64,000 nucleotides of DNA from Elusimicrobiota bacterium (GTDB lineage Bacteria; Elusimicrobiota; Elusimicrobia; 2-01-FULL-59-12): contig JBAZWU010000001.1 of NCBI GenBank assembly GCA_041660185.1, positions 182,765-246,764 on the forward strand, in the 5' to 3' direction. Of this stretch, positions 1 through 61,685 are shown piece after piece; the first letter of the stretch is position 1, and the number at the start of each line of letters is the position of its first letter. A model generated the notes under the pieces. It did no database searches, had not been told where the DNA came from, and was given only the letters and a program-made list of their open reading frames with translations. Made by a program: the position numbers and the translations under genes.

Positions 1-31
1 TTTAAGAGACGACGCATGTTCGTTCCCCGCC

Positions 32-120
32 GTCATCCCCCGCGGTTGTAGGCGGGGGATCCATCATGCCGTCGACGGACGACATTCTTGGATTCCCCGC
101 CAGTGACTGCGGGGAATGAC
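32..120. repeat. Nested-palindrome REP/MITE-like element, copy A (two hairpin units in inverted orientation)
   Basis: GTCATCCCCCGC-ggttgtag-GCGGGGGATCC ... GGATTCCCCGC-cagtgact-GCGGGGAATGAC. Each unit is a perfect 9-bp stem. The same unit recurs at 7160, 27553, 54514 and 60873. It lies just downstream of the stop of the last glycan-locus gene. Confidence 0.8.
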
Positions 121-152
121 AAAAAATACTTGTGTGTGCATTTATGGGTAGA

Positions 153-5571: not shown

Positions 5572-6287
5572 GGCCAGAGATGAAACCGATGAAGATAATA
5601 ACGCGCGATGCTTCGCAACGATTCCAGACCGTAACGGACGCTGCGGCTGAAGTTGATGGAGGAAGCTTCATCAAAATAGCGCGCGGGAACCGGGATGTCC
5701 CCCATCCGAAAGCCAAACGCGGCGGCTTGAACCAGAAACTCACAGTCGAAAACGAAATCGTTGGAGTTCCGTTCCCAGGGAATGGTTTCGAGCACCTTTC
5801 GGGAGTAGGCCCGCAGGCCGCTGTGCCATTCACCCAGATTCTGGCCCATCAAAAAGTTTTCCATCATGGTCAAGAACCGGTTGGCGATGTATTTGTAAAC
5901 GGGCATTCCCCCATTTAAGGCTTCGTTTCGCGTTCGAATACGGTTCCCGAGCACCACGTCGCAAACCCCATCCTTCAGGAGTCCGGTCAGGTAAGGGACC
6001 AAACGGGAGTCGTATTGATAATCCGGATGAATCATGACGACGATATCCGCTCCGGCCTGGAGCGCGCTCCGGTAACATGTTTTTTGATTGCCCCCGTATC
6101 CTAAATTCTTTTCATGCACGATGACGGTGAGCCCCAGCTGGCGGGCCAGGGGAACGGTCTGATCGCGGGAGCAGTCATCGACAAGGATAATGCTGTCGAC
6201 CGATCCGTCCGGGATATCCCCGACGGTTCGAGCCAGTGTTTTTTCCGCGTTATAGGCAGGCATCACCACAATGACTTTTGGTTTCAT
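5547..6287 (-). CDS. Glycosyltransferase family 2, polyprenyl-phosphate sugar synthase-like (DPM1/ArnC/GtrB-like)
   Basis: [24 protein letters not shown]2 N-terminal signature and HPDYQYD (DxD-like). Start chosen at MKPKVIVV (ATGA overlap with the upstream stop); the ORF-track start at 6344 is probably an extension. Confidence 0.8.
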
Positions 6288-7819
6288 AAAAGTTCCACCC
6301 AGGGTAGATTGACGACTTTCCGAAGCCGGTAGGTGCGCATCCACACGTGAGCCATGGGTTCCTGTAAAAGACTCTCGTGAGCGAAAACAGGCGCCCGTTG
6401 TTTGAGTTTCGTCACTTCCGTTTTTAGAAGGTCAGACGGTATGCGCGTGACGTTCCAAGCCGGTCGTCCGGTAAAGTACAGCAGATAAATCCAGGGAACT
6501 CCTCCTTCCATCAAGTAAAAAGCGTCGGACGGTGTTCCTCGCGCCAGCGCCAGGGTCTGCTGATACGCGGCGTTGTTTTTCGCGGCATGCATCGGCCGTA
6601 TTAAGGTTACAAAGTTTACCGCCAGGGTTGATCCGACGAGGCCTGCGAGACACCACCGCCGGGTCGTTTCCGAAAGGCCGCGCGCAAGACCCACCGCCAG
6701 CAGAAGCCCCAGGGGAATCACATCCGCCATCCGGTAAAGAAGCGTCCGGGGTTCCCACGTCCACAGAAAGAGCGCGTAAACGCCGATCCAAAGCAGGCTG
6801 AATCGCCAGATCCTGTCGGCTCGATGACGGAAAGAAAGAAAAATCCCAAGGCCGAACAATCCCAGGGAAACAACCGTCAGTGTCCATGTCAGAAAAGTGA
6901 CGTGCGTCGTTCCGTAAGGCGAAAAGCTTCCCCAGAGATAAGGAAGGTTCCCCCAGGCCCATTGAAGCGGAGCGTTCCATCCCGCCCAATGCCAGGCCAG
7001 ATGGCGGTCCGGGGTCAGACCGGCGCTTCCTCTCAGCCACGTGAGAATCCAGGGGAAGCCGCGATGGGACGGGATCAAAACAAAGAAAAGAACGCTCAGA
7101 TAAGGGATCGCAACGGTGGATCCTAGAGTGGCTAGATAAGTCAGATAAGTTTTAAAGCCGTCATCCCCGAGTGTCTTTGTCGGGGACGCCACACTGCGGG
7201 CGTCCGCCAGTCGTGTGGCGGATCCATCATGCTGTCTGGATTCCCCGCCAGAGACCGCGGGGAAGGACGTCATCGTAACGCGTTCTTTTCGAATCCAATA
7301 GAGGGCGGGGATGATCCATAAGAGATGAATCACATGGCCAAGAACCGCCAATCCATGAAGGAGGCCGACCCAAAGATATTTCCGGGTCGACTGGCTTGCG
7401 AGCAGAACGTAAACCGCCCACGCCAACGCCGCGAACCCCAGGGGATAGACTTGCGCTTCCAGGCTCCAGACCCAGAAAACAGCAGACACGCTCATTGCCC
7501 AGGTGAGTCCCAGCGCTGTCCAGGGTTGACGCGTTTCATGCAGAAAAATCCGGTAAACGCCTGCCAGTCCGATCGCTGAAAGCAGCGGGTTCAGAAGTTG
7601 AAGAGCGGATAAAGCGCGAATGGAGGAAGAAAAGAAAAAAAGAGCCCGCCAAAACCAATACCCCAGGAAGCCATAGAGGAGATGATTGGAATGAAAAAAG
7701 AAAACCGGATCGCCCAGTTCCAGCGCCGCGGCGCAGGCCACCCCATCAAAGTTCCAAAGACAGGACGGGAAGCGGAAGCAAAGCCCGAGGGGGAGTGCGA
7801 ACGCAAGAAAGCAGATCAA
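6284..7819 (-). CDS. Polytopic membrane protein, GT-C-like (paralogue 2), carrying an in-frame repeat-element insertion
   Basis: Hydrophobic multi-pass protein with a C-terminal soluble region like the other GT-C paralogues. Residues ..[41 protein letters not shown].. are encoded by repeat copy B. Confidence 0.45.
7160..7268. repeat. Nested-palindrome REP/MITE-like element, copy B (expanded, 3-4 hairpins), inside a CDS
   Basis: gtcatccccgag..gtcggggac / tccgccagtcgtgtggcgga / ggatccatcatg / gattccccgccagagaccgcggggaa. Shares the GGATCCATCATG core and terminal units with the other copies. Confidence 0.75.
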
Positions 7820-9132
7820 AGACGTACCAGGTGTTCCGACGAAAGTCCTCGCATGAGGTTTCGGGTGTCAATGACGAGCTTCGAGTTTTTCAGGATATCG
7901 TCGGCATTGAAGACGTCATGAGCGGTGGTGACCACCACCGCGTCCTGGCTTTGAAGCAGCCGAGCCGAATAAGGCTTGCTGGTGAGGTGTTGTTTCCCCA
8001 GAATCAGTGAAGGCACATAAGGGTCGTGATAGGACACCGTGGCTCCATTTTGCTGCAATAGATGAATCAAATCCAACGCCGGGGATTCCCGCATGTCGGA
8101 TACATTGGCTTTGTAGGCGACGCCCATCACCAGGATCTTCGATCCGTTCACGGGTTTGCGCCGGGCATTCAAGGCCCGAGTTGTTTTTTCTAAAACAAAC
8201 TCCGGCATGTGTGAGTTCACTTCGCCGGCCAGTTCAATGAACCGGGCCGAGAAGTTCAGGGATTTCATCTTCCAGGACAAATAGTGGGGGTCGATCGGAA
8301 TGCAGTGCCCCCCAAGGCCCGGGCCGGGGTAGAAGGGCATGAAGCCGTAGGGCTTGGAAGCCGCCGCTTCGATAATTTCCCACACATTTAAGCCCAGCTT
8401 ATCGCAGATCAGGGCGATTTCGTTGACCAATCCGATATTCACCGCCCGGAAGGTGTTTTCGAGCAGCTTCACCAGCTCGGCGGCTTCCGGCGAAGAAACC
8501 GGTACGACGCGCTGAATGATCTGGCCGTAAAGCATCGTGGCCAGTTCGGTGCAGCTCCGGGTCATGCCGCCCACGACTTTGGGGGTGTTCGGAAGCTTGA
8601 ATTTTTTATTCGCCGGGTCGATCCGTTCGGGAGAGAAGGCCAGGAAAAAGTCTTTTCCAACCTTGTAACCGTTTCCGCCCAGCAGGGGAAGCACAAAATC
8701 CCGCGTGGTCCCCGGGTATGTGGTGCTTTCCAGAATGATCAGCTGGTCCTTATGCAGGTACCTGGCGATTTGTTTAGCTGAACTGGCGATAAACGAAATA
8801 TCCGGATCTTTCGTTTTGTTGAGTGGGGTCGGGACACAGACAACGACCGCGTCCATCTGTTTGAGTTTGGAAAAATCAGTCGTGGCGGTGAGGTTCCCGG
8901 ATTCAACGACAGAGGCTAACTCGGCCGTCGAAATATCTCCGATATAGGACCGCCGGGACCGGATCTTTTCGACTTTCCGGTCGTCCACTTCAAAACCGGT
9001 GACCGGGAAACCCGCTTTGGCAAATTCATAGGCGAGAGGCAAGCCGACGTACCCCAACCCTAAAATGCCGATTCTGGCGGAATGAGACTGAATTTTATCT
9101 TTGATCACAAAGGCACCCCTTTTTTGAAACAC
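7816..9132 (-). CDS. Nucleotide-sugar 6-dehydrogenase (UDP-GlcNAc/UDP-ManNAc dehydrogenase, WbpA/WecC-like)
   Basis: Rossmann motif IGILGLGYVGLPLA. Catalytic-Cys motif GLGGHCIPIDP. Length 438 aa. Confidence 0.85.
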   Translation of the reverse strand: MFQKRGAFVIKDKIQSHSARIGILGLGYVGLPLAYEFAKAGFPVTGFEVDDRKVEKIRSRRSYIGDISTAELASVVESGNLTATTDFSKLKQMDAVVVCVPTPLNKTKDPDISFIASSAKQIARYLHKDQLIILESTTYPGTTRDFVLPLLGGNGYKVGKDFFLAFSPERIDPANKKFKLPNTPKVVGGMTRSCTELATMLYGQIIQRVVPVSSPEAAELVKLLENTFRAVNIGLVNEIALICDKLGLNVWEIIEAAASKPYGFMPFYPGPGLGGHCIPIDPHYLSWKMKSLNFSARFIELAGEVNSHMPEFVLEKTTRALNARRKPVNGSKILVMGVAYKANVSDMRESPALDLIHLLQQNGATVSYHDPYVPSLILGKQHLTSKPYSARLLQSQDAVVVTTAHDVFNADDILKNSKLVIDTRNLMRGLSSEHLVRL

Positions 9133-25461: not shown

Positions 25462-26670
25462 TTATCGTATCATCTTTCGAGCCTCGATCGCTTCCCGATA
25501 ATAGCGGACAAACGTTTCGGTATGAGCGGACCAGGAATGGTTTTGGAGCACGAATTCGCGGCCCTTCTTGCCCAGGGTTTCCCGAAGAGAAGGGTCTTTC
25601 AACAGCCGGAGGGTTTGCCGGGCGAATTGCTCGGGTGTATCGGCGGTCAATAGATGCTCCCCATCCCGGGAATCAATCCCCGCCAGGCTCATGGGTGTGG
25701 CGACAACGGCCTTTTCCATCGCCAGCGATTCGAGGATTTTGTTCTTGATCCCTGAGCCGATGCGCATCGAGCTGACGATCACCGCGGCTTCGGCCATGGG
25801 TTCGCGTAGATCCGGGACAAAACCGGTCAGCCGGATACGCGGCTCGCTGCCGGTCAGGGCCCGCAATTCCTTCGGGGCCGCGTCGCCGACAATCCGGAAC
25901 TCCGTATCCGGGCGCTGCGCCCAGATCAGCGGAAGCACCTCTTTTGCGAAGAACATGGCGGCATCGTAATTCGGGAGAAAACTCATGATCCCCCGGAATA
26001 AGACCACGTTGGATTTCACCGGGACAGGCTGCGGTTGAAAATAATCCGTGTCAACCCCGTTGGGATTCCACTCGATGGCGGCGCCGGGGCTGCGGCCCTG
26101 AAGAACGTCCCGGTCCACCGGTGAGACGACAACCGTTTTTTCAAACCAGGGAAGTATCTTGGACTCGTAGGCTTTCATCTTGCGGGTTTGGCTGACCATA
26201 TACATGCGGAACAATCCGTTGCGTTCGGCTGAAATGTTGCGCTCGAAGAGCATGGACATGGCGTCATGAGGGAAAAAGATCTTCGGCCATTCCTTCAGTC
26301 GAGGCGCGTATTGAGCCATGCTGACAAAATCGATATGAACGATGTCCGGCTGAAATTGCCTGGCGGCTCTCTCGATGGTTTGGTGCATCCGTGCGGATTG
26401 AAATTGGTATACGGCATAAGGGTCGGGCTGGAACAGCATATTGAAGAGTCTCTTCCAGGCCTGCTTCGGCACCTTGTGTTCGACCACGTCGACCGACCGG
26501 CAGAACGGCGTGATGCGCGGAAGATACTCTTTTTCTTGAGCGGATTCCGTAAAGCAGATGAAATGGATTTCATGATGGGCCGAGAGGTGCTTGAGCAGAT
26601 GGTAAACATGCAGGCGCACGCCTTCATGCAGCGGATAGGGAAAACTGTGGGCGATAAATAAGATCTTCAT
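25462..26670 (-). CDS. Glycosyltransferase family 4
   Basis: MKILFIAHSFPYP N-terminus. C-terminal GSGIKNKILESLAMEKAVV GT4 motif. Confidence 0.8.
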   Translation of the reverse strand: MKILFIAHSFPYPLHEGVRLHVYHLLKHLSAHHEIHFICFTESAQEKEYLPRITPFCRSVDVVEHKVPKQAWKRLFNMLFQPDPYAVYQFQSARMHQTIERAARQFQPDIVHIDFVSMAQYAPRLKEWPKIFFPHDAMSMLFERNISAERNGLFRMYMVSQTRKMKAYESKILPWFEKTVVVSPVDRDVLQGRSPGAAIEWNPNGVDTDYFQPQPVPVKSNVVLFRGIMSFLPNYDAAMFFAKEVLPLIWAQRPDTEFRIVGDAAPKELRALTGSEPRIRLTGFVPDLREPMAEAAVIVSSMRIGSGIKNKILESLAMEKAVVATPMSLAGIDSRDGEHLLTADTPEQFARQTLRLLKDPSLRETLGKKGREFVLQNHSWSAHTETFVRYYREAIEARKMIR

Positions 26671-27539
26671 CGTCGAAACCGCTCCCGGATGAATACGACC
26701 GAAGTGTGGAACGCGAAAAACGGCATTAAAAAGCAGTAGACGCCCGGACCGTAGTATTTCCGGTAATAATTCAACAGACTCCGGTGCCGCAGGCGAAAAA
26801 TAGCCCAGGGTTCAACGGCTCGCGTGGTCCCGGCCACATGGTGGCGAACCCGCGCGTCGGGATAATACACCACCTGCCACCCGGCTTGCCAGGCCCGGCG
26901 GCAGTAATCGGCCTCTTCCCCGTAAAAGAGGAAATGAGCCGCATCCAGGCCGCCGATCTGTTCGTAGAGGCTCCGGCGGATCAGAAAACAGGCTCCTCCG
27001 ACGAAATCCACGGGGCGAAGGCTTTTACGGTCCCATCCCGCGTACGAGTAGTTCCGGAGGACCGGATTATTTGGAAATAAGTAATTCAGAAAGAGGTACT
27101 CAAAGAGCGCGAAGGCGATGGTTTGAAAGCGGCAGCCGCTTTCCTGGATCGATCCGTCCATGCGGAGGACCTGCGGCCCTAGGATGCCAATCTCCGGATG
27201 CTGGTCCATAAACCGGACCATGCGGTCGAGGCAGTCCGATTCATACATCACGTCATTGTTTGAAATCAGCACATACCGGCCCGTGGCCATGGCCAGGTTA
27301 CTATTCGTGCCTTGAGCGTAGTACGTGTTTTCAGAATTGATCGTGAGTTTGACCTGCGGGTAGCGGCGCTGAATCAAGGATACGCTGTTGTCGCTCGAGG
27401 CGTTATCCACCACGAAAACCTCAAACAGGCAGGACGGCGGCCGGGTGTAGATCGAGTCCAGCAATGGGCTTAAATAGATTTCGCCGTTGTAATTCACGAT
27501 GGAAATCGAGAGGTCCATGGCGTCAGGAGATCGTGTCAT
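26667..27539 (-). CDS. Glycosyltransferase family 2 (WbbL/rhamnosyltransferase-like)
   Basis: LSISIVNYNG..FVVDNASSDNS..LISNNDV signature. Start is uncertain (27557, 27539 or 27518); the 27557 ATG lies inside repeat copy C. Confidence 0.75.
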   Translation of the reverse strand: MTRSPDAMDLSISIVNYNGEIYLSPLLDSIYTRPPSCLFEVFVVDNASSDNSVSLIQRRYPQVKLTINSENTYYAQGTNSNLAMATGRYVLISNNDVMYESDCLDRMVRFMDQHPEIGILGPQVLRMDGSIQESGCRFQTIAFALFEYLFLNYLFPNNPVLRNYSYAGWDRKSLRPVDFVGGACFLIRRSLYEQIGGLDAAHFLFYGEEADYCRRAWQAGWQVVYYPDARVRHHVAGTTRAVEPWAIFRLRHRSLLNYYRKYYGPGVYCFLMPFFAFHTSVVFIRERFRR

Positions 27540-27552
27540 AACGATACATTTC

Positions 27553-27636
27553 GTCATTCCCCGCAGTCTCTGGCGGGGAATCCATCATTGTCGTTCGCAA
27601 TTCTTGGATCCCCGGCCAGCGACCGCCGGGGATGAC
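27553..27636. repeat. Nested-palindrome REP/MITE-like element, copy C
   Basis: GTCATTCCCCGC-agtctctg-GCGGGGAATCCATCATTG ... GGATCCCCGGC-cagcgacc-GCCGGGGATGAC. The second stem carries compensatory changes. Confidence 0.8.
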
Positions 27637-28819
27637 GAATTGCGACACAGTCTCCAGGTCCAGGGGACTGTTTTGTGAGGGTTCGTTCGACGATCTGGTG
27701 AATCTTCTCCTGGAATTTCTCGAGGGTGAATTCGCGCGATCGTTCCAGCAGCGTGGTTTGAACGGCGATCTGCAGGGCCTTGTCCTGCAGCAGGCGGATG
27801 ATCTTTTGCAGAGCATCATCGGGATCTTTCCAGAGGATCCGTGAATCATTCCCGAGAACTTCAGCCTGTCCCCCTCCCTCATGCGCAAAAGGGATCATTC
27901 CCCCGCTGATCATTTCGGCGATGGCGATGCCAAAGCCTTCAAAATCCCGCATATGAATCCCGTATTGGAACCGGTTCATTAAGGAGGTAATGCCCGCTCG
28001 ATTGAGCCGGCCCTCCCAGAAAATGCCTTGAGCTGGATTGGCCATCCGTTTCACGCGTTCGGCGTAAGGGCTTTTCCCGTCCCCGATCAGATGCAGATCG
28101 ACGGAGAACCCTTTCTCCCGGAGTTGGCGAATCAGCAGGACCGCCTGATCCACCTTCTTTTCCGGCAAGAGATCCCCCACGCAGAGAAAACCCGTATGCC
28201 GCTGCTCCCAGGGAGCCGGATTGTTTCCGGGCAAAACCACCGGCGGGTAAACCACCTCAGCGTCCGTTCCGGGGTAGGTTCGCTGGAATACGTCTTTGCC
28301 CCATATCGAATTGACCAGCGTCGTATTCTGGAGGATGTGATCCGGCTGGAAGTGCGAAATCTGATCGCACAAACGATAGTACAGTTTCCGCCAACCCGAT
28401 TCCTTGTATTGGGACAGGTAAAGCTGCGCGCCGAGCGTGCTGCGGGAAGGACCGTGAATGTATTGAATCCCGGGGACGCCGAAATCAAATTCGTTGTACG
28501 TGGAGATCAGAAGATCGAACCGCGGAGCCAACTGCTTGACGAATCGCTCATAGAGCGCGAGGATCAGCCTGAAAGGCCTTTGGTGGGCCTTCAGGAGCGT
28601 TAAAGAGGGGCAGTAATAGGTTGTGACCCTGGAGGGGTCGATCCGTGTGCCGTAATAGCTGTTGAGGGCGTTCCAGTCGATCGTCTGTCCCCAGGTCAGA
28701 TAAGAGAGATCAAACGATTGGTGGAGCGCATCGAGGAGCCAGGCCGCGACAAAATCCCCTCCGCCTTTGTTTTGCAGCAGATTGTGGTGAACCAGCGCGA
28801 TTTTCGGGCGCGGGCTCAA
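27554..28819 (-). CDS. Glycosyltransferase family 4 (last ~28 codons and stop encoded by repeat copy C)
   Basis: HMRDFEGFGIAIAEMISGGMIPF E-x7-E motif. The C-terminal tail IRHPRRSLAGDPRIANDNDGFPARDCGE maps onto the repeat. Confidence 0.75.
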   Translation of the reverse strand: MSPRPKIALVHHNLLQNKGGGDFVAAWLLDALHQSFDLSYLTWGQTIDWNALNSYYGTRIDPSRVTTYYCPSLTLLKAHQRPFRLILALYERFVKQLAPRFDLLISTYNEFDFGVPGIQYIHGPSRSTLGAQLYLSQYKESGWRKLYYRLCDQISHFQPDHILQNTTLVNSIWGKDVFQRTYPGTDAEVVYPPVVLPGNNPAPWEQRHTGFLCVGDLLPEKKVDQAVLLIRQLREKGFSVDLHLIGDGKSPYAERVKRMANPAQGIFWEGRLNRAGITSLMNRFQYGIHMRDFEGFGIAIAEMISGGMIPFAHEGGGQAEVLGNDSRILWKDPDDALQKIIRLLQDKALQIAVQTTLLERSREFTLEKFQEKIHQIVERTLTKQSPGPGDCVAIRHPRRSLAGDPRIANDNDGFPARDCGE

Positions 28820-54505: not shown

Positions 54506-54513
54506 TTTTCTCC

Positions 54514-54584
54514 GTCATCCCCCGCAGGTTCTGGCGGGGGATCAATGCGTCAATGATGGATCCGCCAGACGTCTGGCGGATGAC
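54514..54584. repeat. Nested-palindrome REP/MITE-like element, copy D
   Basis: GTCATCCCCCGC-aggttctg-GCGGGGGATC ... CAATGATGGATCCGCCAG-acgt-CTGGCGGATGAC. Fills the DUF167-thiS gap. Confidence 0.8.
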
Positions 54585-58522: not shown

Positions 58523-60343
58523 TTAATGGCCGAAGAGACCCTTGAAGGAGTCGAGGGGTTTGGCGCCGAGGCCGGGGACGGAATGTGCGGCTTGAGTTTT
58601 CACCTGGTTCAGCAGATTATCGATGACCTTGTTGTTGGCGGAGAACTGAGAAAGATATTTCTGGCTTAAATCGTTGGCCATGCCCTGCAGTTCCTTGATT
58701 TTCCCATCCGTCTGACGATCCAGTTCCGCGCGCAGAGCCTTTTCCTGAGAGGCCAGTTCCGAACCCAGAGCGTTCTTCATCGCGTCAGCCACAACGCCTC
58801 CGATGTTCGAGGTGACGGTAAACTGCGGAGCCTCCAGCGTGCCGGAAAGGCCGACGCCGACCGTCAGTGATTTTACGGCGGACAGAGACGACGTCACAGC
58901 CTGGGCCGCCCGCTGAGCCATCGCTGAGCTGGATTGAAAATCAATGTGCGGGTCCAAAACGAGGTTGCTGGCCTGCACATCCGCGCTGCCGATCAATTTG
59001 TCCCCTTGGATGATCGCCACGGCGCGTGTCCGGCCGGTCCCCTGGCGAAGTCCAAAAGCCATCGAGTGGGCTTGCCCGAAGGACAAATCCTTGAGAGAGA
59101 AGCCGTCGTAAGTGATCTGAAGGGAATCCATCGGGGTATCGTGAATGTGGTTGAGAACCCCTTTCGCGGCTAGCAGACAGCCGTCTCGGGATCCCTGAAG
59201 ATCAAACGTGGCCGGTTTGCCGTAGAGCGCTGGATTGGTGGTCACGCCGGTGAGTGTTCCTAAAAATCCAAACGGCCGTTCCTGTCCGATTTCGCCCGAC
59301 AGTTCCGCTTTCACCAGCAGGAAGCGCGGCAGCACGTTGTGCCGGGGAAATTCGATAGTGCGGCCGCGTCCGCGGGGCGGCGGCGGAGGACTTTGGGGTT
59401 TGGACGGCATGTACTGCCGGGCGGTTTGAATCCAACCCAGCAGCCGCTCCATCCATTGCGCAACCGACGGACCGAATAGCGCGTTCGCCATGGTTTCTTT
59501 ATCCAGCGTCGGAAGCGAAAGCGTCGAACGTAAATTCTTCCAGTCTTCTTCCCGTGCTTTTTTGACGTCTTCAATCAGGCCCTGAGCCGACTGAATGCGC
59601 TCCGTCACGCTGGACTGGGCCGTCGCCACGTCGATCTTAAGGGTTCGCAGGTCCGTTTGAAGCGTTTTCACTTCCCCGGCCTTTTGAAGGAGAGCCGACG
59701 GATCATTTCCGCCCTGACCGAGCGCCTGGATGCGTTTCTGCAGCGCGTCGGTCCGCTGGGAGACATTGAGCTGATTGATCTGTTTCTGGAGATCCTCCGG
59801 GAGCTTCTGAATTTGTTCTTTGGTTTTCTCCGCCGCTTTCATCGAGGCGAGCTTGTCCGGATTGACGAGGGTTTTTGGATCCACCCTCTGCTTCGCGCCT
59901 TCAAACTTCTGAAGGGAAACCGTCTCAACTTGTCCCCAGAGCTTGCCGGCGGCCTTGGCCACAAAGCCGGGGCGGGTCTCTTCCCGCCAGAGCGCTCCCG
60001 ATGTTTTTCGCGGAGTCCCGAACCGCAGTCCCTTCAACGAGGCATCATCAATAATGACTTTCTTTTCCAGAAGCGGAAGCGTTCGAAAGGCGAAAACCGC
60101 TTCATCAAACTGGAATAAATTCTTCATCGGTTCGGATTTGTCCGCCACCGCCAGGGTTCGAATGCGCAGGGAGCTGTGACGGAGGCTGAGCGTCACGGAA
60201 TCGATCGACACGCGGGCGCCGAAAACGCTCTGACCGCCTTTGATCATCGCCCATTTGGCGAAGGGATCGAGACAGAATACCGCCAGGAGGAAGCCGACCA
60301 GCAGCAGAATCAGCGTTGGGAGAACGGTTTTCCGGCGGATCAT
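58523..60343 (-). CDS. AsmA-like / TIGR03545-like envelope protein with central coiled coil
   Basis: N-terminal TM anchor, then beta-rich repeats (VSIDSVTLSL..IRTLAVAD..), then a central Q/K/L-rich coiled coil. Start at MIRRK gives an ATGA overlap with the upstream gene; the alternative start is 60358. Confidence 0.5.
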   Translation of the reverse strand: MIRRKTVLPTLILLLVGFLLAVFCLDPFAKWAMIKGGQSVFGARVSIDSVTLSLRHSSLRIRTLAVADKSEPMKNLFQFDEAVFAFRTLPLLEKKVIIDDASLKGLRFGTPRKTSGALWREETRPGFVAKAAGKLWGQVETVSLQKFEGAKQRVDPKTLVNPDKLASMKAAEKTKEQIQKLPEDLQKQINQLNVSQRTDALQKRIQALGQGGNDPSALLQKAGEVKTLQTDLRTLKIDVATAQSSVTERIQSAQGLIEDVKKAREEDWKNLRSTLSLPTLDKETMANALFGPSVAQWMERLLGWIQTARQYMPSKPQSPPPPPRGRGRTIEFPRHNVLPRFLLVKAELSGEIGQERPFGFLGTLTGVTTNPALYGKPATFDLQGSRDGCLLAAKGVLNHIHDTPMDSLQITYDGFSLKDLSFGQAHSMAFGLRQGTGRTRAVAIIQGDKLIGSADVQASNLVLDPHIDFQSSSAMAQRAAQAVTSSLSAVKSLTVGVGLSGTLEAPQFTVTSNIGGVVADAMKNALGSELASQEKALRAELDRQTDGKIKELQGMANDLSQKYLSQFSANNKVIDNLLNQVKTQAAHSVPGLGAKPLDSFKGLFGH

Positions 60344-60864
60344 GGGCGCTGAACCCATCGATGGTAGAGGTCAAAAAACTCGTGAATCTTCAGAAATTTC
60401 ATGATTTTCCACTGCATCACCCGCTCCCGGTAGCGGGTTCGATAGGTGACTACGAATGCGCGCATGCCGAAAAAGACCGGCAGGGCCAGAAGAAGGCCAA
60501 CGGCGAAATTCCCCATCACGAGGGTATTGTTGAAAGATGTAAAAGGAATAATCGGGGTATTGTAGAGAAAAGTCCAGAAGCCTTTGAATAGCGGAACGCC
60601 CGAGAGAAGCCAGAATCCAAACTTTTCACAGAAAGGATCCGTGAGGTGTCCCAGAATCGAAAACACGACAATGGCCGCCCCGGCCATGCCGGCGTTGACG
60701 CGGAAGATCATAATGAGGATCGACAAGGAGAGCGCCAACAGGTTGCCCTTGGGAATCAGTCCGATCATGACGCCAAACACAACGCCCGCGGCGATTTCAT
60801 TGGGAGAGACGTCGTCGTTCAGGGTTTGAAGCAGTCCTTTGAGATATTTGATCCAGAATAACAT
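60340..60864 (-). CDS. Small polytopic membrane protein, TIGR03546/DUF2062-like
   Basis: 174 aa with 4 hydrophobic segments. SPNEIAAGVVFGVMIGLIP motif. Translationally coupled to the AsmA-like gene. Confidence 0.45.
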   Translation of the reverse strand: MLFWIKYLKGLLQTLNDDVSPNEIAAGVVFGVMIGLIPKGNLLALSLSILIMIFRVNAGMAGAAIVVFSILGHLTDPFCEKFGFWLLSGVPLFKGFWTFLYNTPIIPFTSFNNTLVMGNFAVGLLLALPVFFGMRAFVVTYRTRYRERVMQWKIMKFLKIHEFFDLYHRWVQRP

Positions 60865-60872
60865 TTTTCACC

Positions 60873-60946
60873 GTCATCCCCCGCGGTTACTGGCGGGGGA
60901 TCTAGACCTCAATGATGGATCCCCGCCTACGGCCTGCGGGGATGAC
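60873..60946. repeat. Nested-palindrome REP/MITE-like element, copy E
   Basis: GTCATCCCCCGC-ggttactg-GCGGGGGATC ... CAATGATGGATCCCCGC-ctacggcct-GCGGGGATGAC. Same subfamily and flanks as copy D. Confidence 0.8.
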
Positions 60947-60971
60947 GACTATTTGTATTCTAGTAATTTCG

Positions 60972-61685
60972 TCAGGCGAAAAAACCAATGACCACAATTC
61001 CAAGCACAAAAAAGAACAGACAGTACCGGTCGTGGGCATCATGAAGCCGCGGTAAGAGGTCGGCGGCGCCGATGTAGATGAAGGAGCCGGCGGCCACGCC
61101 CAGAACAATGCCGATCACCGTCGAGGATTGCGGTCCGGCCCAGAGAAAGCTGGCGAAAGCGCCGAGCGGCGTGGAAAATGCCAGGGCAACGGCCAGAATA
61201 CATTCCATGAATCTGGAGTAACCTGCGGCGCGCAGAAGGCTCGTCAAGGTAAGGCCATCCGAGAATTTATGCAGAATCACGCCGAGCGAAATCACACTCC
61301 CCAGCAGGACGTTCTGACGAAGCCCGACGCCGATAGCCATGCCGTCGATGCCCGCGTGCAGGGACAGCGCCGCTAGAGCGCTGATCGGCATCAGGGGCGA
61401 TTTCGGAGGTTCCAGAAACTCTTCGCAGGTGTGAACCATCGTCACATTTTCCGCCGCGAAAAGAAGGACGAACGTCGTCAGAATGGACAATCCAGCGGTG
61501 TTCCCTGCCAGTGAAAAGGCTTCCGGCAGCAGTTTAAGGAAAGCAATCCCGAGAAGGACTCCGGACCCGAAAGCGAGCAGGCGCCAAAGATGCTTTTTAG
61601 TCCACTCCTCTTTGAGCATGGGCAGTAAACTACCGGAGAGGGTTGTTAGAAAAGCGATGACGCTGTAAAAGAAAAGTATTTTCAT
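60972..61685 (-). CDS. ZIP family divalent metal transporter (ZupT-like)
   Basis: 8 hydrophobic helices. LHAGIDGMAIG and ILHKFSDGLTL metal-site motifs. Confidence 0.75.
   Translation of the reverse strand: MKILFFYSVIAFLTTLSGSLLPMLKEEWTKKHLWRLLAFGSGVLLGIAFLKLLPEAFSLAGNTAGLSILTTFVLLFAAENVTMVHTCEEFLEPPKSPLMPISALAALSLHAGIDGMAIGVGLRQNVLLGSVISLGVILHKFSDGLTLTSLLRAAGYSRFMECILAVALAFSTPLGAFASFLWAGPQSSTVIGIVLGVAAGSFIYIGAADLLPRLHDAHDRYCLFFFVLGIVVIGFFA

What the first reader, a model, noticed from the sequence alone, without database searches (positions are those of the whole stretch)
7160..7268. Repeat element inserted in frame inside a GT-C-like membrane protein gene
Seen: the 511-codon ORF 6284-7819 reads straight through repeat copy B. 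The element is translated as ..[42 protein letters not shown].., a hydrophilic segment of about 40 aa. It follows a positively charged stretch (WIRKER) and lies between two blocks of hydrophobic helices. Both flanks look like genuine membrane-protein sequence in the same frame. Established: Rickettsia palindromic elements are known to insert in frame into protein genes and be tolerated in surface loops. Inference: the same phenomenon occurs here in a different repeat family, producing a lineage-specific loop in a putative glycosyltransferase. Alternatively the gene is a still-open pseudogene.
Basis: partly seen in the sequence, partly recalled or inferred. Interest (0 to 1): 0.65.

Follow-up and report, generated by a model that had tools for sequence, protein, structure and literature searches.

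The report
Translated hairpin repeat in glycosyltransferase gene
A 111-base hairpin repeat sits in frame inside a membrane sugar-transferase gene of an uncultured Elusimicrobiota bacterium and adds a floppy 37-residue loop that all 105 relatives lack; this is a known kind of event (as in Rickettsia), seen here in a new bacterial group.

Summary
ORF 6284-7819 (minus strand, 511 codons) reads straight through a 111-nt palindromic element at 7159-7269, giving [38 protein letters not shown].

The element is a cluster of three CGTC-tagged REP hairpins. The genome holds about 254 such units in 149 clusters; a reversed-genome control gives 0.

All 105 homologues have 5-19 residues in this loop, against 51 here. 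That includes a 64%-identical syntenic one. All 63 positions that are at least 90% conserved in the family are kept.

AlphaFold2 (pLDDT 87) gives a GT-C fold. The insert is a disordered coil between two transmembrane helices, most likely on the cytoplasmic side.

The gene is therefore very probably intact, with a lineage-specific insert that is tolerated.

The case is not isolated. At least 22 other genes in this genome with Pfam matches carry in-frame REP clusters, among them MetH, UvrA, IleS, Mfd, KdpA and DnaX, mostly in the same two reading frames.

The repeat belongs to the CGTC/NTS-like superfamily, to which Rickettsia RPE-4 and RPE-6 were assigned. One small GIY-YIG (Ssn-like) gene is flanked by units.

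Intragenic REPs are already described. This is a new member of a known kind, in a new phylum and a new host gene.

The parts
6284..7819 (-). Host gene: 511-codon GT-C-fold membrane protein (TMEM260/PMT_2-like), TTG start. It shares 4-nt overlaps with the upstream dehydrogenase gene (7816-7819) and with the downstream GT2 gene (ATGA at 6284-6287).
   Evidence: ORF. Pfam TMEM260-like, 17.3 bits, below the cut-off. A profile of the family hits human TMEM260 (9RQL) at E=0.0014. AF2 pLDDT 87, pTM 0.87. Foldseek to STT3, PglB, ArnT and DPY19, probability 1.0, TM 0.45-0.54. All 63 of 63 conserved columns kept.
7159..7269 (.). Repeat copy B: a 111-nt (37-codon) palindromic cluster of three CGTC-tagged REP hairpins. 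It is translated as [38 protein letters not shown] (residues 184-220).
   Evidence: It equals the canonical 87-nt doublet of this genome with a rearranged spacer that is 24 nt longer. It is absent from all 105 homologues.
7237..7269 (-). Main-type REP unit, in the same orientation as the gene: CGTCCTTCCCCGCGGTCTCTGGCGGGGAATCCA. It is read as (T)[10 protein letters not shown], the frame that dominates among intragenic units.
   Evidence: nhmmer E=1e-7. Frame class 'same,1' is used by 19 of 26 same-orientation intragenic units.
7187..7220 (.). Extra 34-nt internal palindrome CGCCACAC..GTGTGGCG. It contains a degenerate CGTC unit (CGTCCGCCAGTCGTGTGGCGGATCCATCAT, 7201-7230) and is not present in the canonical 87-nt doublets.
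   Evidence: (inverted pair I5).
7159..7186 (+). Second-subtype REP unit CGTCATCCCCGAGTGTCTTTGTCGGGGA, opposite in orientation to the gene. It is read as [10 protein letters not shown].
   Evidence: The subtype has 25 copies in the genome against 0 in the control, and this copy is listed at C1:189923. Frame class 'opp,0' is used by 20 of 21 opposite-orientation intragenic units.
30..124 (.). Copy A of the same family: an inverted doublet lying 3' of ORF 153-1325, not inside any long ORF.
27551..27639 (.). Copy C: an inverted doublet that forms the last 28 codons and the stop of ORF 27554-28819 (-). Its terminal ATGACG supplies an ATGA stop/start overlap with ORF 26667-27557.
54512..54580 (.). 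Copy D, lying outside any long ORF.
60871..60948 (.). Copy E: a doublet in the spacer between two co-directional ORFs (60340-60864 and 60972-61685).

Best explanation
A cluster of three CGTC-tagged REP hairpins inserted into the codons for a short loop between two transmembrane helices of a GT-C-fold glycosyltransferase-like gene. The loop is most likely cytoplasmic. The cluster is a variant of this genome's 87-nt inverted doublet.

The insertion happened after this lineage split from its closest sampled relative. It survived for three reasons: its net length is 37 codons, the frame it is read in has no stop codon, and that frame encodes a small-residue, hydrophilic and disordered peptide in a loop that tolerates extra length.

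The gene most likely still makes a working enzyme with a lineage-specific 37-residue loop that has no function of its own.

Shown: the repeat family, the in-frame read-through, its absence from all orthologues, the retained conserved residues, the disordered-loop prediction, and the same outcome in at least 22 other genes.

Inferred: the side of the membrane, near-neutrality, and the way the element moves. The best candidate for mobilisation is the Ssn-like GIY-YIG nuclease gene that is flanked by units, possibly with host recombination.
For: Repeat family. 144 exact units and 254 nhmmer units against 0 in controls. 83 of 149 clusters are inverted '+-' doublets. Copy B aligns end to end with canonical 87-nt doublets.

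Insertion. In related genomes the two halves of the protein match as separate stretches that lie 3-13 codons apart, against 42-47 residues in the query. Alignments show a clean gap of 34-40 residues in all 11 orthologues and in 20 database homologues. The loop is 5-19 residues in 105 homologues against 51 here. The closest homologue is syntenic and 64% identical and lacks the insert.

Gene intact. There are no stops or frameshifts. All 63 of 63 columns that are at least 90% conserved are kept. Divergence from the closest relative (64%) is like that of the neighbouring GT-C gene (69%). Start and stop overlap the neighbouring genes.

Structure. The insert is coil with pLDDT 45-67, while the flanking helices score 94-98. 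The fold is GT-C. Loop charges alternate from the insert loop to the C-terminal domain in a way that fits a cytoplasmic position.

Generality. 22 further genes with Pfam matches (21 above the curated cut-off) carry in-frame clusters. The orthologues of Mfd, IleS, BioA, MetH, UvrA and KdpA in several related genomes lack the inserts. The frame bias is 19:4:3 for same-orientation units and 20:0:1 for opposite-orientation units.

Mobilisation candidate. A 100-aa GIY-YIG ORF at C2:126623-126922 has units 57 nt upstream and 63 nt downstream in inverted orientation. This is the NTS-ssnA-NTS layout of PMC11893778.
Against: No conspecific contigs were found, so it is unknown whether the insert is fixed in the population or whether the protein is made.

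The membrane side rests on charge and parity arguments. The N-terminal half gives an ambiguous parity.

The CGTC-to-GACG span is a multiple of three in only 5 of the 13 other intragenic doublets. The true inserted segment and the mechanism are therefore not understood.

The published SRM search motif for Ssn targets does not match these units, and the GIY-YIG gene could not be assigned to the Ssn subfamily (cd10448) with the tools at hand.

A hairpin of -60 kcal/mol inside an mRNA could have effects of its own.
Confidence: 0.8

Rival explanations
1. The insert has a function. The translated REP cluster, or its DNA or RNA hairpin, is kept by selection. It could be a recognition site for the Ssn-like nuclease, a transcript-stability or ribosome-pausing element inside the 35-kb glycan operon, or a regulatory cytoplasmic loop of the enzyme.
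For: In other genes of this family of genomes, REP doublets sit at the same codon position across up to four genera (MetH, KdpA, UvrA). Their first unit is about 28 of 30 nt identical, while flanking codons differ at many synonymous sites. Each copy's loop follows the type of its own genome. The mRNA-strand fold is far more stable than shuffles. The frame bias among same-orientation units (19:4:3) exceeds what stop avoidance explains.
Against: The GT-C insert itself is unique to this genome among 105 homologues, so it shows no conservation at all. Its spacer is rearranged, and one unit has CGTCCT in place of CGTCAT. The inserts land in unrelated proteins and always in linkers or loops, as expected for tolerated selfish DNA. 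No RNA family matches the region.
Confidence: 0.12
2. The gene is a young pseudogene that happens still to be open. The insertion disabled the protein, for example by disturbing membrane insertion of the flanking helices, and decay has not yet produced stops.
For: Membrane proteins can be sensitive to loop changes. There is no expression evidence. The gene is more diverged from its closest relative (64%) than its soluble neighbours are (85-86%).
Against: All 63 of 63 conserved columns are kept, including D25, E121, H162 and E356. The full-length alignment has no frameshift. The neighbouring GT-C gene is about as diverged (69%). Translational-coupling overlaps are kept on both sides. The element has itself accumulated changes while the frame stayed open. 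The same kind of insert sits in essential single-copy genes such as IleS, DnaX and UvrA, so it is evidently compatible with function.
Confidence: 0.05
3. The feature is an assembly artefact. The repeat was placed in the gene by a mis-join of metagenome reads at a repeated sequence.
For: The genome is a metagenome-assembled genome with about 150 copies of the repeat, and no reads could be inspected.
Against: Both flanks belong to the same orthologous gene, in the right order and frame. Local gene order matches the closest relative's contig. The element is short (111 nt) and differs from every other copy. The contig is 476 kb long. Relatives assembled independently show the same kind of insert in other genes.
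Confidence: 0.03

Closest known systems
Rickettsia palindromic elements (RPEs; Ogata et al. 2000 and 2002, as cited in PMC3733652 and PMC2229807)
   Same: Both are short palindromic repeats found between genes and also in frame inside protein genes. Both are absent from orthologues, lie in loops or linkers, and are tolerated in housekeeping proteins. RPE-4 and RPE-6 were assigned to the same CGTC-tagged superfamily (PMC3733652).
   Different: The host here is a free-living-type Elusimicrobiota MAG, not an obligate intracellular alphaproteobacterium. The unit has an 8-nt loop region and a G+C-rich 9-bp stem. The element is a three-hairpin cluster, not an RPE-1-type unit of about 100-150 nt. Sequence similarity to any RPE was not tested here.
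CGTC-tagged REPs, including intragenic ones (Di Nocera, De Gregorio and Rocco 2013, PMC3733652)
   Same: Shared features are the unpaired CGTC tag, a 9-bp stem that starts with AT, a CCA tail, head-to-head dimers and no flanked transposase gene. Intragenic copies encode 20-30 residues and are often in repair and RNA genes (uvrA, recB-type nucleases, tRNA synthetases, pseudouridine synthases). The same gene classes are hit here.
   Different: The loop is 8 nt, against 4-5 nt in the four described families. Elusimicrobiota is not among the five phyla listed. About 16% of clusters are intragenic here. The host gene, a GT-C membrane protein, is not among those listed.
NTS/dRS3 and Ssn-related motifs with the SsnA GIY-YIG ssDNA nuclease (Chenal et al. 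2025, PMC11893778)
   Same: The head CGTCATTCCC and the tail GGGAATCC are the same as in the Neisseria NTS. One small single-domain GIY-YIG gene is flanked on both sides by units, as in NTS-ssnA-NTS.
   Different: The published degenerate SRM motif does not match these units, because the loop is too long. Subfamily membership of the nuclease and any cleavage activity are untested. NTS repeats are described around genes, not as translated inserts.
REPINs mobilised by RAYT transposases (Bertels and Rainey 2011, from my own knowledge; Nunvar 2010 and Ton-Hoang 2012, as cited in PMC11893778)
   Same: Both are inverted doublets of REP hairpins that behave as a unit and are spread through the genome.
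   Different: The tag is CGTC, not GTAG. None of the five Y1-transposase-like ORFs of this genome lies within 1.5 kb of a unit.

Membership tests
CGTC-tagged REP superfamily (PMC3733652) | Unpaired terminal CGTC tag | tested here: met
   The nhmmer doublets end CGTC...GACG in 63 of 83 cases. Copy B starts with CGTC at both outer ends. The exact pattern contains the tag by design, so it does not count as a test.
CGTC-tagged REP superfamily (PMC3733652) | Stem of 8-9 bp that begins with A-T pairs | tested here: met
   ATYCCCSSC pairs with GSSGGGRAT, giving 9 bp (position table).
CGTC-tagged REP superfamily (PMC3733652) | Loop of 4-5 nt | tested here: not met
   All 144 exact units have 8 nt between the stems. 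This makes it a new variant of the superfamily, not one of the families CGTC-1 to CGTC-4.
CGTC-tagged REP superfamily (PMC3733652) | 3-nt CCA tail and mostly head-to-head dimers | tested here: met
   After the stem come C (142 of 144), C or T, then A (138 of 144). 83 of 149 clusters are '+-' doublets.
Ssn / SRM system (PMC11893778) | Units match the published degenerate SRM motif HGTCWYN(0-2)YYVSBRHN(0-5)WNVSBRGN(0-2)RNCYNB | tested here: not met
   29 matches against 10 in the control, and the consensus units fail.
Ssn / SRM system (PMC11893778) | A small single-domain GIY-YIG gene of subfamily cd10448 is present | tested here: inconclusive
   Pfam GIY-YIG scores 60 bits on a 100-aa ORF. The best solved relative is the UPF0213 protein BH0048, E=6e-4. 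NCBIfam gives no specific model. CDD was not available.
Ssn / SRM system (PMC11893778) | The nuclease gene is flanked by the motif on both sides | tested here: met
   Units lie at -57 (+ strand) and +63 (- strand) of C2:126647-126868. The background density is 0.36 units per 3.2 kb.
Ssn / SRM system (PMC11893778) | Site-specific cleavage of single-stranded DNA next to the hairpin | not testable with these tools
   This needs purified protein and oligonucleotides.
Rickettsia palindromic elements | Palindromic repeat inserted in frame in protein genes and absent from orthologues | tested here: met
Rickettsia palindromic elements | Sequence membership in RPE-1 to RPE-8 of Rickettsia | not tested
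   No RPE sequences were compared. The link rests only on the literature assignment of RPE-4 and RPE-6 to CGTC families (PMC3733652). The host is not Rickettsia.
REPIN/RAYT system | A RAYT (Y1 transposase) gene flanked by the REPs, and a GTAG tag | tested here: not met
   Five PF01797 ORFs were found, and none has a unit within 1.5 kb. The tag is CGTC.
GT-C glycosyltransferases (host protein) | Multi-helix membrane module with the GT-C fold | tested here: met
   Foldseek probability is 1.0 to STT3, PglB, ArnT, DPY19, ALG12 and Pmt4, with TM 0.45-0.54, on a model with pLDDT 87.
GT-C glycosyltransferases (host protein) | Conserved acidic residue in the first loop after helix 1 | tested here: met
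   D25 in NFDGVACA is invariant in 21 sequences.
GT-C glycosyltransferases (host protein) | Sequence membership in a curated family (PMT_2 or TMEM260-like) | tested here: inconclusive
   PF11028 scores 17.3 bits against a cut-off of 24.2. The family profile hits human TMEM260 at E=0.0014. Some homologues carry precomputed PF13231 or PF11028 hits.

The most novel reading that the evidence does not exclude
Translated REP clusters in this Elusimicrobiota family may not be mere tolerated junk. They may be maintained at the nucleotide level.

Copies at the same codon position in MetH, KdpA and UvrA persist across genera. They stay more alike than the flanking synonymous sites, and they track the loop type of their own genome. 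That would mean ongoing gene conversion or re-targeting, or co-evolution with a hairpin-reading protein such as the Ssn-like nuclease.

On this reading, coding sequences, including this GT-C gene, host working DNA or RNA hairpin sites. The published Ssn motif search misses a whole class of such sites with longer loops.
Probability: 0.15. Interest if true: 0.7.

Novelty: new member of a known kind. Interest (0 to 1): 0.4.

Why it matters
For annotation, the gene should be called as one intact GT-C gene with a repeat-derived loop, not as a pseudogene or as two genes. The same applies to about two dozen other genes in this genome.

For biology, it extends protein-coding palindromes from Rickettsia and a few other lineages to free-living-type Elusimicrobiota and to a polytopic membrane enzyme. 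It shows which reading frames of a CGTC hairpin survive in proteins.

It also ties this repeat type to the recently described Ssn hairpin nuclease, and shows that the published search motif would not find these units. If the copies shared across genera prove to be actively maintained, this lineage would be a good system for asking how REP-type repeats spread and why they persist.

Tried and rejected
- **Conspecific alleles:** the 90% cluster of the protein holds only the same contig's product under two start letters. Exact 24-mer and 27-mer searches of the two flanks in metagenome contigs found nothing.
- **RAYT hypothesis:** five Y1_Tnp ORFs exist, but none lies near a unit. Rejected as the mobilising enzyme for this family.
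- **Published SRM, NTS and dRS3 motifs:** these gave no or background-level matches.
- **Rule of three:** I tested whether intragenic doublets have CGTC-to-GACG spans divisible by three. They do not (5, 4 and 4 of 13), so the true insert ends are unknown.
- **Other features at the element:** Rfam found no RNA family in 6000-8500, and there is no promoter or terminator at the element.
- **My first fuzzy regex** for units was too loose (101 control hits). I replaced it with the nhmmer model.
- **Spurious ORFs:** six long-ORF candidates were dropped from the count because the REP lies in an antisense-looking or very short ORF or upstream of the likely start. These are C19:14386, C9:10092, C8:49727, C9:101865, GreA at C16:17013 and the SurA-like gene at C3:82162.
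- **Topology of the N-terminal half:** it could not be settled from charges alone.
Full report
**1. What is in the sequence**

The minus-strand ORF 6284..7819 has 511 codons and a TTG start. It reads without interruption through a palindromic element at 7159-7269.

In gene orientation the element has three parts:
- A main-type hairpin unit, CGTCCTTCCCCGCGGTCTCTGGCGGGGAATCCA (7269-7237).
- A 34-nt inner palindrome that holds a degenerate CGTC unit (7187-7220).
- An inverted unit of a second subtype, CGTCATCCCCGAGTGTCTTTGTCGGGGA (7159-7186 on the plus strand).

The span from CGTC to GACG is 111 nt, or 37 codons. Aligned with other copies, it is this genome's canonical 87-nt inverted doublet with a rearranged spacer that is 24 nt longer. 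It folds far better than shuffled sequence on both strands, with z = -4.6 and -3.8.

**2. The repeat family is real**

The pattern CGTCATYCCCSSC-N8-GSSGGGRAT occurs 144 times in the 2.27-Mb, 28-contig genome and never in the reversed control. A profile built from these units finds 254 units at E<=1, against 0 in the reversed genome. They form 149 clusters, of which 83 are inverted '+-' doublets. The CCCCGAG subtype has 25 copies against 0 in the control.

The window holds four more copies: 30-124, 27551-27639, 54512-54580 and 60871-60948.

Record titles of relatives name the organism group as uncultured Elusimicrobiota. With the strict pattern, the family is confined to the same taxonomic family of genomes. 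Counts are 144 here, 38 and 41 in two others, and 0-11 in the remaining members of that family. All 30 genomes from other families of the class have 0.

**3. The insert is specific to this lineage**

In 11 related genomes the protein matches as two stretches, roughly query residues 1-180 and 225-510. These lie 3-13 codons apart in the subject, against 42-47 residues in the query. Alignments show a clean gap exactly at the element.

Among 105 database homologues, 425-571 residues long, the loop holds 5-19 residues against 51 here. The closest homologue is 64% identical. It sits in the same gene order (dehydrogenase, this gene, GT2, next GT-C) and has the short loop.

Joining the flanks gives ..[15 protein letters not shown].. 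in frame, a loop of orthologue-like length.

**4. The gene looks alive**

- All 63 columns that are at least 90% conserved among the 105 homologues are kept.
- The start overlaps the stop of the upstream UDP-glucose/GDP-mannose dehydrogenase gene. The stop forms an ATGA overlap with the GT2 gene.
- Identity to the closest relative (64%) is lower than for the soluble neighbours (85-86%), but close to that of the neighbouring GT-C gene (69%).
- Two annotation sources hold the same 511-residue product, differing only in the start letter.

**5. Structure**

AlphaFold2, run with a 21-sequence alignment, gives mean pLDDT 87 and pTM 0.87. Residues 185-217 are coil with pLDDT 45-67, between helix 163-184 and helix 218-251, which score 94-98.

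Foldseek matches only GT-C enzymes at probability 1.0: STT3 and PglB, DPY19, ArnT, ALG12 and Pmt4, with TM 0.45-0.54. A family profile hits human TMEM260 at E=0.0014.

Five helices separate the insert loop from the C-terminal soluble domain. Loop charges alternate between them: +1.1, then a long Trp-rich loop, +1.6, -1.1 and +1.8. In solved GT-C enzymes the C-terminal domain faces away from the cytoplasm; this is established knowledge of PglB, STT3 and ArnT. The insert loop is therefore most likely cytoplasmic. That is an inference, and the N-terminal half gives an ambiguous parity.

**6. The same thing happens across the genome**

I looked for clusters inside stop-free frames with at least 80 codons open on each side and found 31 candidates. 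After dropping six doubtful ones, Pfam scans give 22 further genes with Pfam matches (21 above the curated cut-off), with domains on both sides of the insert, spanning it, or on one side only:
- MetH
- UvrA
- IleS
- an AsnB-GT1 fusion
- Mfd
- KdpA
- AddA-like and AddB-like nucleases
- two RlmD-type methyltransferases
- a class-III aminotransferase
- an Upf1-like helicase
- a Methyltransf_28 protein
- DsbD
- a CofH/MqnC-type radical SAM enzyme
- a GT4-like protein (below the Pfam threshold)
- DnaX
- a GT2
- a RluA-family pseudouridine synthase
- MnmG
- a squalene/phytoene synthase
- HemC

That is about 16% of clusters. The inserts fall in interdomain linkers or split a domain match in two.

A chimeric query made of the flanks of six of these genes was searched against six related genomes. 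The Mfd insert is missing in all six. The IleS insert is missing in four, the BioA insert in two (G001 and G005), and the MetH insert in two.

Units in the same orientation as the gene use the frame ..SSPAGSGGGS.. in 19 of 26 cases, although all three frames of the consensus are stop-free. Units in the opposite orientation use ..DSPPVAGGNDG.. in 20 of 21 cases; the other two frames carry a TGA. Both outer units of copy B use these favoured frames.

**7. What kind of repeat it is**

The units have an unpaired CGTC tag, a 9-bp stem that starts with AT, and a CCA tail, and they form head-to-head dimers. These are the marks of the CGTC-tagged REP superfamily (PMC3733652). That superfamily includes the Neisseria dRS3 and, by that paper's assignment, Rickettsia RPE-4 and RPE-6. 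The paper already reports intragenic copies in uvrA, recB-type genes, tRNA synthetase genes and pseudouridine synthase genes.

The 8-nt loop differs from the 4-5 nt of the four described families. Elusimicrobiota is not among the phyla listed there.

The head CGTCATTCCC and the tail GGGAATCC are those of the Neisseria NTS, the target of the SsnA GIY-YIG single-strand nuclease (PMC11893778). Here one 100-aa GIY-YIG ORF has units 57 nt upstream and 63 nt downstream.

Five Y1-transposase-like ORFs are not near any unit, so a RAYT-type system is not supported.

**8. Most likely explanation**

A REP cluster inserted after the split from the nearest sampled relative. It survived because it keeps the frame, has no stop, encodes a flexible hydrophilic peptide, and sits in a tolerant loop that is probably cytoplasmic. 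I put this at about 0.8.

The rivals are a functional insert (0.12), a still-open pseudogene (0.05) and an assembly artefact (0.03).

The way the element moves is not known. The CGTC-to-GACG span is a multiple of three in only 5 of 13 other intragenic doublets.

**9. Limits**

Nothing can therefore be said about expression, translation or polymorphism.

**10. Verdict**

It is a new member of a known kind. Interest is moderate. The more unusual lead is the apparent nucleotide-level maintenance of translated copies shared between genera. That lead lies outside this finding.

Noticed in passing
Own genome outside the window, e.g. C4:42897-46424 (MetH), C8:40140-43046 (UvrA), C17:9488-12196 (IleS), C3:84396-87662 (Mfd), C6:133027-134802 (KdpA), C1:34795-36561 (DnaX): At least 22 further genes with Pfam matches (21 above the curated cut-off) carry in-frame REP clusters, which is about 16% of all 149 clusters. 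Most are read as ..SSPAGSGGGS..DSPPVAGGNDG...
   Followed up: yes
MetH: G000 C4:44553-44621, L119 (G007), L120 (G002), L121 (G003). KdpA: L125 (G003). UvrA: L118 (G007).: REP doublets sit at the same codon position in orthologues from up to four genera. The first unit is about 28 of 30 nt identical, while the flanks differ at many synonymous sites. Each copy's loop follows the type of its own genome (..CTGG here..GTCAG or ..GTAAG elsewhere). G003 has only two exact units in its genome, and both are these intragenic ones. This looks like concerted evolution and is unexplained.
   Followed up: partly
window 27551-27639: Repeat copy C forms the last 28 codons (..RHPRRSLAGDPRIANDNDGFPARDCGE*) and the stop of ORF 27554-28819. 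Its terminal ATGACG gives an ATGA stop/start overlap with ORF 26667-27557, so a REP end can supply both a stop and a start codon. The true start of the downstream gene was not checked.
   Followed up: partly
Own genome C2:126623-126922: A 100-aa single-domain GIY-YIG ORF is flanked by REP units at -57 and +63 in inverted orientation, the layout described for ssnA. Homologues at 55-67% identity occur in most genomes of the family and in some other families of the class. A second small GIY-YIG ORF at C6:86478-86693 has an in-frame TGA.
   Followed up: partly
Own genome C11:71803-74874: A 1024-residue ORF joins an asparagine-synthase module (residues up to 610) to a GT1 glycosyltransferase module (from about 812). 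A REP doublet sits between them at residues 623-652. This may be a gene fusion made by read-through of an intergenic repeat.
   Followed up: no
Own genome C1:310259-310417, C1:313855-314013, C10:65690-65849: A longer composite element of about 157-159 nt is translated in an AddA-like gene, an AddB-like gene and a RluA-family pseudouridine synthase gene. It gives near-identical peptides (..MDPPHRPPVESISRCGPVYENIDRRAGPPESAEDD..).
   Followed up: partly
Protein P0061 (homologue of the host gene; alignment A2, columns about 357-378): This homologue has its own extra segment of about 22 residues (..IATKQSVISRHDRIDGLLRYARNDS..) in a different loop. It looks like a translated repeat of another family.
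   Followed up: no
Own genome C11:91138, C2:122584, C4:145095, C3:2645, C2:190195: Five ORFs of 330-372 residues carry a Y1 transposase (PF01797) domain. They are much longer than usual RAYT or IS200 transposases, and none lies within 1.5 kb of a REP unit.
   Followed up: partly
Own genome C7:101201-135700: A stop-free frame of about 11,500 codons with an EAL domain carries an in-frame REP doublet at C7:127079-127160.
   Followed up: no
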